From assembly GCF_044324875.1 (NCBI RefSeq), contig NZ_CP172185.1: DNA of 64,000 bases. One strand, 5' to 3'. The stretch is from Escherichia coli. Its GTDB lineage: Bacteria > Pseudomonadota > Gammaproteobacteria > Enterobacterales > Enterobacteriaceae. Positions 27,476 to 28,060 of the stretch are shown piece after piece. The translations under genes and the position numbers were made by a program. Every line of letters starts with the position of its first letter. Position 1 is the stretch's first letter. Under the pieces are notes generated by a model. It searched no databases. It was not told the origin of the DNA and was given only the letters and a program-made list of their open reading frames with translations.

Positions 27476-28060
27476 TTATGCTTTCCGTACGCCCGAGGAA
27501 CTGGCATTTTTCAGAATAATATTATGCCCTGCTGGTGGCTTACCGTTATGCTTATTTTCTGCCTTCATGTTTCTGCGCTCCTGCTGTTTTTTCTTCATCT
27601 CATCCAGTCGCTTCCCCGCGTTCAACTGGTGCTCCTGTGTCACCTCCCCGCACGGATGGCCTTTCAGGTCGTAACGCACGCCACCAGCCATCAGGGAACG
27701 GTAATATCGCACTGAACTGACATAATACGCCAGCGTTGCGCGAAGCGCTCCCTGACCTAATGAAATACCTCTCGCAGTAATATCCTCCATCAGGTCATCA
27801 AATATGCCAACCTTAAGCGGTCTGGGCGATTCCTGGCTGAAAAGTTCAGGCCAGAGCGCGGCAAGGCGTTCAACGCGTCTGATATTTTTTTTCCGGCTCT
27901 TTTCTGATTTGCGTTTTGCTGCCGTCTTCTGTTGTGTTTTCTGCTCGCGGCTCTGCTTTTGCGCTGGTGTGGTTTTATCCGGCTGTTCAGCCTCCTGCGT
28001 CTTTTTCTGCGGTGTGCCGTATATGCCTTTTGGTTTTCGGTTAATGGTCAGCTTTGTCAT
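27476..28060 (-). CDS. ProQ/FinO-domain RNA-binding protein (194 aa)
   Basis: Start at MTKLTIN (GGGGGAG SD); central region LAALWPELFSQ..PRPLKVGIFDDL...LRATLAYYVSSVRYYRSLMAGGVRYDLKGHPCGEVTQEH parallels the ProQ/FinO fold; lysine-rich N-terminal extension. Confidence 0.6.
   Translation of the reverse strand: MTKLTINRKPKGIYGTPQKKTQEAEQPDKTTPAQKQSREQKTQQKTAAKRKSEKSRKKNIRRVERLAALWPELFSQESPRPLKVGIFDDLMEDITARGISLGQGALRATLAYYVSSVRYYRSLMAGGVRYDLKGHPCGEVTQEHQLNAGKRLDEMKKKQQERRNMKAENKHNGKPPAGHNIILKNASSSGVRKA

What the first reader, a model, noticed from the sequence alone, without database searches (positions are those of the whole stretch)
27476..28060. ProQ/FinO-domain RNA-binding protein encoded as satellite cargo
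The ORF has a lysine-rich N-terminal tail followed by a region whose motifs parallel the ProQ N-terminal domain (FinO fold). FinO-domain proteins are RNA chaperones that usually act on plasmid or core sRNAs. One embedded between the cos/terS and ssb genes of a satellite suggests RNA-based control of the island or interference with helper or host RNAs. It could be the protein partner for the structured RNA candidates at the island end.
Basis: inference. Interest (0 to 1): 0.7.

Follow-up and report, generated by a model that had tools for sequence, protein, structure and literature searches.

The report
FinO-type RNA-binding protein in phage satellite
The ORF is a genuine FinO-family RNA-binding protein that is a recurrent backbone gene of E. 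coli-type phage satellites (PICIs), already labelled as such in RefSeq but with no studied role, and a good candidate partner RNA lies elsewhere in the same island.

Summary
Observation confirmed. Window 27476-28060 (minus strand) encodes a 194-aa basic protein (pI 10.3). It matches Pfam ProQ/FinO at E 1.7e-26, has a predicted FinO fold, and keeps 8 of 10 RNA-binding residues mapped in ProQ. RefSeq already calls it "ProQ/FINO family protein".

It is collinear with plasmid FinO over its full length and lacks ProQ's C-terminal domain.

The gene sits in a 10.4-kb PICI satellite between clpS and cspD. It is the last gene of the replication operon (icd-DUF4222-primase-ssb-perC-proQ), just before a terminator and a lambda-type cos site.

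It is backbone rather than random cargo. The same slot holds a FinO-domain gene, usually paired with PerC, in PICIs of E. coli, E. albertii, Salmonella, Citrobacter and Serratia (dN/dS 0.2-0.4).

The "structured RNA at the island end" is a second, HK97/SfII-type cos site, which is DNA.

A better partner candidate is an about 80-nt cis-antisense RNA (32902-32981, plus strand). It covers the icd-like start codon and Shine-Dalgarno sequence and ends in a covariation-supported terminator.

A FinOP-like feedback loop is my inference. RNA binding and targets are untested. Verdict: new member of a known kind, moderate interest.

The parts
27476..28060 (-). Gene for a 194-aa FinO-domain protein. Layout: conserved N-terminal motif MTKLTINRKPKGIYG; disordered Lys/Gln-rich linker (about residues 16-38); long basic helix (39-69); FinO core (70-141); C-terminal helix (142-171); 23-aa tail unique to this variant.
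   Evidence: Pfam PF04352 E 1.7e-26. PDB sequence hits. AlphaFold model with core pLDDT above 90, and Foldseek matches to FinO, RocC, NMB1681 and ProQ. dN/dS 0.2-0.4. RefSeq WP_029400542.1 is annotated 'ProQ/FINO family protein'.
28064..28070 (-). Shine-Dalgarno sequence GGGGGAG of the FinO-domain gene
   Evidence: Read directly from the sequence upstream of the ATG.
27425..27453 (-). Intrinsic terminator ending the operon: 9-bp stem, 4-nt loop, U6 run, A-rich 5' side. It is a possible FinO-domain ligand. It is also conserved in a related island that lacks the FinO gene.
   Evidence: Terminator scan. Fold z-score -4.6. 91% identical in L002, which has no FinO gene.
27381..27392 (-). Lambda-type cosN core GGGCGGCGACCT, between the FinO-domain gene and terS
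   Evidence: The only exact match in the window. Its identity with the lambda cohesive end rests on my own knowledge of the lambda sequence.
26604..27188 (-). Terminase small subunit-like (Nu1 or Rpp-type) gene
   Evidence: PHROG 57, E 7e-65. RefSeq annotation.
28140..28460 (-). PerC-family small regulator, the usual neighbour of the FinO-domain gene in PICIs
   Evidence: Pfam PF06069 E 1.1e-26. Adjacent to the FinO gene in L003, L004, L005, L009, L012, L013 and L016.
28478..28888 (-). Single-stranded DNA-binding protein gene
   Evidence: TIGR00621 above its cut-off.
29245..29420 (.). Replication origin iterons (GGGGTAGAGGGCTTTT, three copies) downstream of the primase gene
   Evidence: Repeat family D8. 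Analogous island-specific iterons occur in other PICIs.
29429..31177 (-). P4-family primase/replicase gene
   Evidence: TIGR01613 and PHROG 864, E 1e-168.
32902..32981 (+). Candidate partner RNA: an about 80-nt cis-antisense RNA opposite the icd-like start codon (32900-32902) and Shine-Dalgarno sequence (32908-32911). Elements: extended -10 TGGTATGAT at 32887-32895; stem-loop 32902-32937; terminator stem-loop 32938-32972; U-rich tail to about 32981.
   Evidence: Plus-strand fold z -4.3 (139 nt) and -5.6 (82 nt), against -1.2 for the minus strand. In 32 distinct homologues, 96.9% of cells pair, 10 of 14 terminator pairs show compensatory changes, and 0 of 500 shuffles reach this. Many G-U pairs make the structure strand-specific. 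Transcription and protein binding are not shown.
25218..25241 (.). attL core direct repeat (ATTAACTACACCATTAACTACACC)
   Evidence: Repeat family D1, with its partner at 35559-35582.
35559..35582 (.). attR core direct repeat
34297..35535 (-). Tyrosine integrase gene of the island
   Evidence: ORF. RefSeq annotation.

Best explanation
SHOWN. The ORF encodes a FinO-domain protein with FinO-like, not ProQ-like, architecture. It is the last gene of the replication operon of a 10.4-kb PICI satellite integrated between clpS and cspD. It belongs to a family that occupies this same slot in many enterobacterial PICIs.

FOLLOWS FROM FAMILY KNOWLEDGE. FinO domains grip the base of an intrinsic-terminator hairpin together with its 3' U-tail.

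INFERRED. In this island the protein acts on island-encoded regulatory RNA. The best candidate is the about 80-nt cis-antisense RNA at 32902-32981 (plus strand), which covers the Shine-Dalgarno sequence and start codon of the icd-like first gene of the operon. The protein would stabilise this RNA and/or speed its pairing with the operon leader. Because the gene sits at the distal end of the operon it would regulate, this gives a FinOP-like negative feedback that limits or times satellite replication and packaging gene expression. In related PICIs the same role would fall to the C4/IsrK-type RNAs that occupy the same position.

Confidence by part: about 0.95 for 'FinO-domain RNA-binding protein, conserved PICI backbone gene'; about 0.3 for the specific RNA target and the feedback logic.
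For: Identity:
- Pfam PF04352 at E 1.7e-26.
- AlphaFold core pLDDT 85-97. The Foldseek top 27 PDB hits are all FinO-domain proteins, with target-normalised TM 0.78-0.85 and rmsd about 2.2 A to RocC.
- ProQ residues needed for RNA binding (K35, G37, D41, R58, Y70, R80, D82, G85; PMC7192607) are conserved as K83, G85, D89, R107, Y119, R129, D131, G134. Only K54 to Q and L71 to Y differ.

Architecture:
- Collinear with IncF FinO, residues 9-181 against 4-167, at E 1e-21. This includes the N-terminal LTLKRK / LTINRK motif.

Backbone gene:
- The same slot, after primase and optional ssb, is occupied in E. coli, E. albertii, Salmonella (two tandem copies), Citrobacter and Serratia PICIs. These carry three different replicase types.
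- It is present in 18 of 71 IMG/VR islands of this backbone.
- dN/dS is 0.2-0.4.

Candidate RNA:
- Strand-specific fold, with strong covariation in the terminator hairpin.
- An invariant AGA sits 5' of the terminator stem and pairs with the start of the U-tract. This is a feature of ProQ-class ligands (PMC7367173).
- The layout of two stem-loops antisense to a ribosome-binding site resembles FinP/traJ (PMC9977716).
- C4 and IsrK RNAs occupy the equivalent place in other FinO-bearing PICIs. IsrK is listed among the ProQ-associated sRNAs in Salmonella (PMC5391140).
Against: - No binding, expression or phenotype data exist.
- The antisense RNA is not specific to FinO-bearing islands. It is present in L002 and in about 75% of islands of this backbone that lack the gene.
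- Terminator-hairpin variants show no association with presence of the gene. There is therefore no co-evolution signal, and host ProQ could serve the RNA.
- Transcription of the antisense RNA is inferred only from an extended -10 and a terminator.
- The operon structure, and hence the feedback argument, is inferred from gene order.
- P1, P4 and many PICIs run C4/CI-type RNA control without any FinO-domain protein.
Confidence: 0.35

Rival explanations
1. The protein works in trans on helper-phage or host RNAs. It might bind terminator-type 3' ends of helper regulatory or late transcripts to interfere with or time the helper. Alternatively, together with PerC, it might reprogramme host (virulence or stress) gene expression by competing with or extending the host ProQ regulon.
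For: - In minimal PICIs (L005, L016) the FinO-domain gene and PerC are the only genes beyond integration and replication. They are therefore the obvious candidates for helper exploitation or host effects.
- PICI PerC homologues alter LEE expression (PMC11773190, PMC6092414).
- Host ProQ binds many prophage sRNAs (PMC5391140, PMC9977716).
- There is no co-variation between the gene and the island antisense RNA.
Against: - Characterised mobile-element FinO-domain proteins (FinO, FopA, PcnR) act mainly on RNAs of their own element (PMC9977716, PMC7491321, PMC8053102).
- No helper target can be named from sequence.
- The gene occurs in islands with different packaging signals (lambda-type cos, HK97-type cos, none detected). 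A single helper-specific RNA target is therefore unlikely.
Confidence: 0.3
2. The protein is a 3'-end protector of the island's own polycistronic mRNA. It binds the operon terminator just downstream of its own gene (27425-27453) and shields the transcript from 3' exonucleases. This would be positive autoregulation without any antisense partner.
For: - The terminator is canonical, has an A-rich 5' side, and folds well (z -4.6).
- FinO domains recognise exactly this kind of element, and ProQ ligands are mostly mRNA 3' UTRs (PMC7367173).
Against: - The same terminator and cos segment is 91% conserved in L002, where the upstream gene is not a FinO-domain gene.
- In most other PICIs the FinO-domain gene is followed by PerC rather than by a terminator.
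Confidence: 0.15
3. The gene is a functionless passenger or a decaying remnant captured from an F-like plasmid.
For: - Some copies are frameshifted (L008; the PerC neighbour in L003).
- About 75% of islands of this backbone lack the gene.
Against: - Intact ORF with a good Shine-Dalgarno sequence.
- dN/dS of 0.19-0.39 across E. coli, Citrobacter and Salmonella copies.
- RNA-binding residues are retained.
- Conserved position across genera.
- Only 31-34% identity to plasmid FinO, so it is not a recent capture.
Confidence: 0.05

Closest known systems
FinO of F-like (IncF) plasmids, with the FinP antisense RNA and traJ mRNA
   Same: - Similar size (186 vs 194 aa).
- Collinear over the whole length, including the N-terminal basic motif, the long N-terminal helix, the FinO core and the C-terminal helix.
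- Encoded at the distal end of the operon it would regulate.
- The candidate partner, like FinP, is an about 80-nt two-stem-loop cis-antisense RNA covering a ribosome-binding site and ending in a terminator.
- finO is followed by a small ANR-family regulator on IncF plasmids. The PICI gene is paired with PerC, which gives sub-threshold hits to the same ANR model.
   Different: - Only 31% identical. It scores 75.6 bits against a FinO family cut-off of 136.
- It sits on a chromosomal phage satellite, not a conjugative plasmid.
- There is no tra operon, FinP or traJ.
- The partner RNA is unproven.
FopA (pCol1B9, Inc RNA/repZ) and PcnR (IncI2 plasmids)
   Same: - Small FinO-domain proteins of mobile elements.
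- They have basic N-terminal extensions and no ProQ C-terminal domain.
- They act with a cis-antisense RNA on a replication gene leader (PMC7491321, PMC8053102, PMC9977716).
- Here the gene directly follows the replication module.
   Different: - No close plasmid homologue exists; the best plasmid hits are FinO at about 34% identity.
- The candidate antisense RNA targets the icd-like leader at the head of the operon, not the primase gene itself.
Chromosomal ProQ of E. coli and Salmonella
   Same: Same FinO-domain fold. Most RNA-contacting residues are conserved. Sequence match to the ProQ NTD at E 4e-18.
   Different: - Lacks the linker and the Tudor-like C-terminal domain.
- Scores 76.4 bits against a cut-off of 127 for the ProQ equivalog.
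- It is accessory and island-borne, not core.
RocC/RocR of Legionella pneumophila
   Same: RocC gives the best structural superposition (target-normalised TM 0.78-0.85, rmsd about 2.2 A). RocC binds the terminator of one dedicated sRNA.
   Different: RocC is a core-genome competence repressor that acts in trans. Sequence identity is about 30%.
C4 (P1/P7) and CI (P4) immunity RNAs; SymR/SymE
   Same: These are RNA regulators placed at the icd or leader region of a mobile-element operon. Rfam C4 and IsrK RNAs are found at this place in other FinO-bearing PICIs. The window's antisense element gives weak SymR-like hits in relatives.
   Different: None of these systems is known to use its own FinO-domain protein. 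The window itself has no detectable C4 RNA.

Membership tests
FinO/ProQ domain superfamily (Pfam PF04352) | Significant, near full-length match to the domain profile | tested here: met
   E 1.7e-26, 92.7 bits, model positions 8-107 of 109.
FinO/ProQ domain superfamily (Pfam PF04352) | FinO fold (helical core with a beta-hairpin) | tested here: met
   AlphaFold2 model with core pLDDT 85-97. The Foldseek top 27 PDB hits are all FinO, RocC, NMB1681, Lpp1663 or ProQ. This is a prediction, not a solved structure.
FinO/ProQ domain superfamily (Pfam PF04352) | Conserved RNA-contact residues (ProQ K35, G37, D41, K54, R58, Y70, L71, R80, D82, G85) | tested here: met
   8 of 10 are identical (K83, G85, D89, R107, Y119, R129, D131, G134). 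K54 becomes Q103 and L71 becomes Y120 (alignment; residue list from PMC7192607).
FinO/ProQ domain superfamily (Pfam PF04352) | Binds structured RNA at a terminator hairpin plus 3' tail | not testable with these tools
   Needs gel shift, CLIP or a three-hybrid assay.
FinO proper (NCBIfam NF010317) | Score above the curated family cut-off | tested here: not met
   75.6 bits against a cut-off of 136.
FinO proper (NCBIfam NF010317) | Full-length FinO architecture (N-terminal basic region and helix, core, C-terminal helix) | tested here: met
   BLASTP of FinO 9-181 against 4-167, E 1e-21. Model helices at 39-69 and 142-171.
FinO proper (NCBIfam NF010317) | Encoded in the tra region of an F-like plasmid and acting with FinP on traJ | tested here: not met
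   The locus is a chromosomal PICI. All 1512 E. coli places matched by the gene are chromosomal.
ProQ equivalog (NCBIfam NF003434) | Score above the cut-off, with the linker and C-terminal Tudor-like domain | tested here: not met
   76.4 bits against 127, and only profile positions 17-124 of 205 are matched. There is no second Pfam domain.
Phage-inducible chromosomal island (PICI) | Integrase with flanking att direct repeats; size about 10-15 kb; no tail or lysis genes | tested here: met
   att repeats at 25218-25241 and 35559-35582, giving a 10.4-kb island.
Phage-inducible chromosomal island (PICI) | AlpA-type regulator followed by a primase/replicase and an iteron origin | tested here: met
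   The HTH gene at about 33675-33884 is 51% identical to a PF05930 AlpA gene in L010. P4-family primase. Iterons.
Phage-inducible chromosomal island (PICI) | Own packaging signal or redirection function | tested here: met
   Lambda-type cosN, terS-like gene and an HK97/SfII-type cos element.
Phage-inducible chromosomal island (PICI) | Induction and high-frequency transfer by a helper phage | not testable with these tools
   Needs an experiment.
FinOP-like antisense circuit (works-like claim) | Cis-antisense RNA with a terminator hairpin overlapping the ribosome-binding site of a key gene | tested here: met
   Structure and covariation at 32902-32981, opposite the icd-like Shine-Dalgarno sequence and ATG. 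Transcription itself was not shown.
FinOP-like antisense circuit (works-like claim) | Protein and RNA co-occur or co-evolve | tested here: not met
   The RNA element is present in islands without the gene: the gene is present in 18 of 71 IMG/VR islands. Hairpin variants are not associated with presence of the gene.
PerC/ANR relationship (finO-ANR versus proQ-perC module) | Homology between PICI PerC and the ANR gene that follows finO on IncF plasmids | tested here: inconclusive
   Four PICI PerC proteins hit NF033650 over the same region at E 9e-6 to 0.03, below the cut-off. hhalign gives probability 28%, E 6e-4. BLASTP gives E 0.002.

The most novel reading that the evidence does not exclude
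Enterobacterial PICI satellites run a FinOP-like post-transcriptional circuit. A satellite-specific clade of FinO-type chaperones, encoded at the end of the replication operon, partners the regulatory RNAs at the head of that operon. These are the newly delineated icd-antisense RNA here, and C4/IsrK RNAs in sister islands. The circuit sets the threshold or timing of satellite replication and packaging. The FinO-plus-PerC/ANR gene pair would be an ancient regulatory cassette shared with the finO locus of F-like plasmids.
Probability: 0.2. Interest if true: 0.7.

Novelty: new member of a known kind. Interest (0 to 1): 0.45.

Why it matters
FinO-domain proteins are the third major class of bacterial RNA chaperones. 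Their known mobile-element members all come from plasmids. PICI regulation is currently described only at the protein level (AlpA, Rpp, PerC).

Suppose the satellite clade of FinO proteins does control island RNAs. PICI induction and replication would then have an RNA layer comparable to fertility inhibition in F plasmids. The antisense RNA at icd would become a tractable model with one protein, one RNA and an easy transfer read-out.

The family is common. Relatives of the gene occur in about 20% of complete E. coli genomes. About a quarter of islands of this backbone carry it. Any function would therefore bear on phage-satellite-host dynamics and possibly, through the PerC partner, on virulence regulation.

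If the protein instead targets helper or host RNAs, it would be a new kind of satellite interference or conversion factor.

Tried and rejected
1. Rfam scan of the island at E up to 1, and of 32650-33150 at E up to 10. No known RNA family lies inside the island; only the cspA-type leader of the flanking cspD gene matched.

2. PADLOC on the protein and its neighbours. No defence-system match.

3. The island-end "structured RNA" as partner. Rejected, because the conserved 83-nt element is a phage cos site.

4. An RNA hidden in the origin region between primase and the next gene. The regions are island-specific iteron arrays with no conserved sequence across FinO-bearing PICIs.

5. A FinP-like antisense RNA opposite the alpA leader. 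Reading 33600-34320 showed no plus-strand terminator or hairpin there.

6. Other plus-strand terminator-like sites inside proQ, terS, primase and DUF4222. They are weak, and the total count is not above shuffled expectation: 18 found against 13.2 +/- 4.1.

7. Co-variation of terminator-hairpin variants with presence of the FinO gene. None found.

8. Bona fide phages as a home for the family. Only 5 weak hits in 50,697 records.

9. Close plasmid relatives. None; the best are FinO at about 34% identity, apart from one 17.9-kb record matching at 61% identity that I did not examine.

10. The genome-contig scan returned only 14 loci, three of them informative.

11. PerC/ANR homology. Suggestive but below thresholds.

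12. The longer ORF starting at 28156. Rejected on homologue N-termini and Shine-Dalgarno position.
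Full report
**1. The observation**

The finding's coordinates hold an ORF on the minus strand, with ATG at 28060 and its stop codon at 27476-27478, encoding 194 aa. A strong Shine-Dalgarno sequence (GGGGGAG, 28064-28070) precedes the ATG. An in-frame upstream ATG at 28156 is not the start, because every homologue begins MT(K/T)LTINRKP.

The first 62 residues hold 14 Lys and 6 Arg against 5 acidic residues, and the protein's pI is 10.3. Several searches identify the rest:
- Residues 63-163 match Pfam PF04352 (ProQ/FINO) almost end to end at E 1.7e-26.
- NCBIfam finds both the ProQ and the FinO models at E about 1e-21, each far below its curated cut-off.
- phmmer against PDB sequences finds the ProQ NTD (4e-18), FinO (2e-15) and RocC (2e-12).

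RefSeq already annotates the identical protein (WP_029400542.1) as "ProQ/FINO family protein".

**2. Fold and residues**

An AlphaFold2 model built on 48 homologues has mean pLDDT 77. Block means are 84-97 for residues 51-170, and the N-terminal linker (12-38) is disordered.

Foldseek against the PDB returns only FinO-domain structures in its first 27 places: FinO, RocC, NMB1681, Lpp1663 and ProQ. Target-normalised TM-scores are 0.78-0.85 and rmsd is about 2.2 A to RocC.

Ten ProQ residues have been shown genetically to matter for RNA binding (PMC7192607). Eight are identical here: K83, G85, D89, R107, Y119, R129, D131 and G134. K54 becomes Q103 and L71 becomes Y120. Pairwise dN/dS against copies from E. 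coli, E. albertii, Citrobacter and Salmonella is 0.19-0.39.

**3. Which kind of FinO-domain protein**

The protein has no ProQ linker or C-terminal domain. It is collinear with IncF FinO over essentially its whole length: FinO 9-181 against residues 4-167, 31% identity, E 1e-21. The alignment includes an N-terminal motif (FinO LTLKRKTEG, here LTINRKPKG) that is nearly invariant in the family. The model shows the long N-terminal helix (39-69) and C-terminal helix (142-171) typical of FinO.

It is not FinO itself:
- It scores 75.6 bits against a cut-off of 136.
- The closest plasmid relatives are about 34% identical, apart from one unexamined 17.9-kb record at 61%.
- All 1512 E. coli places that match the gene at DNA level are chromosomal.
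- Bona fide phages almost never carry relatives, with 5 weak hits in 50,697 records.

**4. The surroundings**

The gene lies in a 10.4-kb island inserted between clpS (24724-25044) and cspD (35909-36163). The island is bounded by direct repeats ATTAACTACACCATT(A/G)ACTACACC at 25218-25241 and 35559-35582.

Reading along the minus strand, the island holds:
- integrase (34297-35535)
- an AlpA-type HTH gene (about 33675-33884)
- a block of small plus-strand ORFs including ylcI
- an icd-like gene
- DUF4222 (31174-31473)
- a P4-family primase (29429-31177)
- origin iterons (29245-29420)
- a small ORF (28885-29142)
- ssb (28478-28888)
- PerC (28140-28460)
- the FinO-domain gene
- an intrinsic terminator (27425-27453, fold z -4.6)
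- an exact lambda-type cosN dodecamer (27381-27392)
- a terS-like gene (26604-27188)

These assignments rest. This is a typical Gram-negative PICI as described in PMC6092414 and PMC6739421.

A sister island at the same site in strain IHE3034 carries capsid and decoration genes where this one has PerC and the FinO-domain gene.

**5. Cargo or backbone**

Relatives of the gene are found in 1075 of 5426 complete E. coli genomes.

Eight of the sampled E. coli places were inspected. Five lie in PICI-type islands and three in other tRNA-associated or CP4-like islands.

In every PICI examined, the gene sits directly after the replication module and in the same orientation:
- E. coli: L003, L004, L005, L009, L013-15
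- E. albertii: L016
- Salmonella: L010, with two tandem copies
- Citrobacter: L012
- Serratia: L017

This holds although these islands use three different replicases (P4/D5_N primase, DUF927, RepA helicase) and different integrases. In 8 of the 10 distinct islands, counting the window, PerC is adjacent, often with overlapping stop and start codons.

Two minimal islands (L005, L016) have nothing beyond integration and replication genes except this gene and PerC.

I also collected IMG/VR islands through an unrelated conserved 15-mer, keeping those with at least 6.5 kb of downstream DNA. Of these, 18 of 71 carry the gene, 3.2-5.2 kb from the marker.

The gene is thus a recurrent, optional backbone module rather than one-off cargo.

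The PICI papers I could read mention PerC but never ProQ or FinO. The FinO/ProQ review speaks only generically of phage-encoded and chromosome-integrated homologues. [quoted passage not shown]

**6. The suggested RNA partner at the island end**

The conserved, strongly folding element near attL (25511-25593, minus strand) is not an RNA gene. It has three telling properties:
- It is 92-95% identical to sequence within 100 bp of the physical ends of the SfII, ST64B and 118970_sal3 phage genomes.
- In HK97-like prophages it sits between the HNH endonuclease gene and the P27-family terS gene.
- It occurs in about 2100 of 5426 E. coli genomes.

It is a second cos site, of the HK97/SfII type.

**7. 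A better candidate RNA**

Aligning the region upstream of the icd-like gene across islands revealed a conserved block. On the window's plus strand it reads as follows:
- an extended -10 (TGGTATGAT, 32887-32895)
- a stem-loop (32902-32937)
- a GC-rich stem-loop (32938-32972)
- a U-rich tail (to about 32981)

The icd-like ATG (32900-32902) and Shine-Dalgarno sequence GAGG (32908-32911) lie on the opposite strand. An RNA starting about 7 nt after the -10 would therefore be perfectly complementary to the start codon, the ribosome-binding site and the leader.

The evidence for this structure is:
- The plus strand folds far better than shuffles: z -4.3 for 139 nt and -5.6 for the 82-nt RNA. The minus strand does not (z -1.2).
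- 32 distinct homologues were collected from IMG/VR and my own loci. Among them, 96.9% of cells form standard pairs.
- 10 of the 14 pairs of the terminator hairpin show compensatory double changes.
- No shuffle out of 500 reaches any of the five measures, and sliding the partners collapses pairing to 33-52%.
- Frequent G-U pairs would be A-C mismatches on the other strand, so the structure is strand-specific.

Rfam has no family for this element. Relatives give only sub-threshold SymR-like hits in the same antisense orientation.

[quoted passage not shown] A purine- or A-rich 5' side is the feature that distinguishes ProQ-class from Hfq-class terminators (PMC7367173).

In FinO-bearing PICIs of the other regulatory type (L005, L009, L010, L016), the same position holds Rfam C4 antisense RNA (69-78 bits against a gathering score of 45) and IsrK. 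IsrK is listed among the ProQ-associated sRNAs in Salmonella (PMC5391140).

**8. Mechanism and its status**

Shown:
- domain identity, predicted fold and conserved residues
- selection on the gene and its fixed position in PICIs
- the existence of a covarying, terminator-ended antisense structure at the head of the operon

From established family knowledge: FinO domains bind the base of a terminator hairpin plus the 3' tail. Plasmid members promote sense-antisense pairing on their own element (PMC9977716, PMC7367173, PMC7491321).

Inferred: the protein stabilises the icd-antisense RNA or helps it pair with the leader. Because the gene is distal in the operon, this would give FinOP-like negative feedback.

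Against this inference:
- The RNA also occurs in islands without the gene (L002, and about 75% of the IMG/VR sample).
- Hairpin variants show no association with the gene.
- Nothing shows that the RNA is transcribed or bound.

I therefore put about 0.95 on "FinO-domain RNA-binding protein, conserved PICI gene" and about 0.3 on the specific circuit. The rivals are:
- action on helper or host RNAs, perhaps together with PerC (0.3)
- simple 3'-end protection of the operon mRNA at its own terminator (0.15)
- a neutral passenger (0.05)

**9. A side link to plasmids**

On two IncF plasmids, finO is followed by a small ANR-family regulator gene. Four PICI PerC proteins hit the same NCBIfam ANR model over the same region at E 9e-6 to 0.03, below the cut-off. 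hhalign gives 28% probability.

The pairing of a FinO-type gene with a small PerC/ANR-type regulator may therefore be an old cassette shared by F-like plasmids and PICIs. The homology is not established.

**10. Verdict**

The gene is already annotated in RefSeq, so the identification is not new.

What the held literature does not describe:
- a distinct FinO-like clade fixed in the backbone of enterobacterial PICIs
- its pairing with PerC
- a FinP-like antisense RNA in the same islands

Novelty class: new member of a known kind. Interest is moderate (0.45). The system is directly testable with standard RNA-biology and PICI-transfer assays.

Noticed in passing
window 25511-25593 (- strand): An 83-nt element (GGGGCGGG...CCCGCCCC followed by a U-run) is a second cos site of the HK97/SfII/ST64B type. 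The island therefore carries two different packaging signals: this one and the lambda-type cosN at 27381-27392. The element is present in about 39% of complete E. coli genomes and is unannotated.
   Followed up: yes
window 25218-35582: Chi octamers (GCTGGTGG, either strand) are about six-fold enriched in the island: 19 copies, 1.83 per kb, against 0.30 per kb in the rest of the window. Other PICI loci also hold many. One copy inside the FinO-domain gene encodes the conserved Ala-Gly-Gly. This may protect linear or concatemeric satellite DNA from RecBCD.
   Followed up: partly
window 31670-33097 (- strand) and 32112-32282, 32526-32720, 33101-33280, 33329-33529 (+ strand): RefSeq's 477-aa 'Icd-like' CDS has an implausible composition. 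It runs antisense through small plus-strand ORFs, two of which share an FPLE(D/R)FI motif, alongside ylcI. It looks like an over-extended or read-through ORF. Homology places the true icd-like start at 32902. The roughly 700 bp at 32030-32730 occur in only 9 of 5426 genomes.
   Followed up: partly
window 32887-32981 (+ strand); alignment A5: A covariation-supported cis-antisense RNA lies opposite the icd-like start codon and Shine-Dalgarno sequence. It is widespread in PICI-like contigs of IMG/VR, has no Rfam family, and gives only weak SymR-like hits. It could be a type I antitoxin-like regulator of the Icd-like cell-division inhibitor, whether or not the FinO-domain protein is involved.
   Followed up: yes
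L032 173-1074 and L033 1273-2165 (IncF plasmids): finO is directly followed by a small ANR-family regulator gene on IncF plasmids. This parallels the FinO-domain/PerC pair in PICIs. PerC proteins give sub-threshold hits to the ANR model.
   Followed up: partly
L010 8001-8642 and 8657-9115 (Salmonella enterica PICI): Two tandem FinO-domain genes occupy the slot after ssb, with no PerC. The same island has two C4 and two IsrK RNA copies upstream of its replication operon.
   Followed up: no
L005 and L016 (E. coli and E. albertii, at tRNA-Pro): These are minimal PICIs. Beyond the int, alpA, ash, icd, DUF4222, primase and ssb genes, they contain only the FinO-domain gene, PerC and a non-coding end that shares cos-like blocks with the window. 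They carry Rfam C4 and IsrK RNAs.
   Followed up: partly
L002 2535 (+) and 3402 (-): The sister island in IHE3034 has two exact lambda-type cosN cores in inverted orientation flanking its terS-like gene. This recalls the cos1/cos2 pair reported for EcCICFT073 (PMC6739421).
   Followed up: no
L013 963-1030 and L017 3696-3766: The Rfam int-alpA RNA motif (RF02996) is found between int and alpA in two FinO-bearing PICIs: 46.9 bits, above the gathering score, and 31.6 bits, below it. It was not detected in the window.
   Followed up: no
window 29245-29420: Three GGGGTAGAGGGCTTTT iterons, plus inverted copies, flank an AT-rich stretch downstream of the primase gene. This is the island's origin. Each related PICI has its own iteron sequence.
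   Followed up: partly
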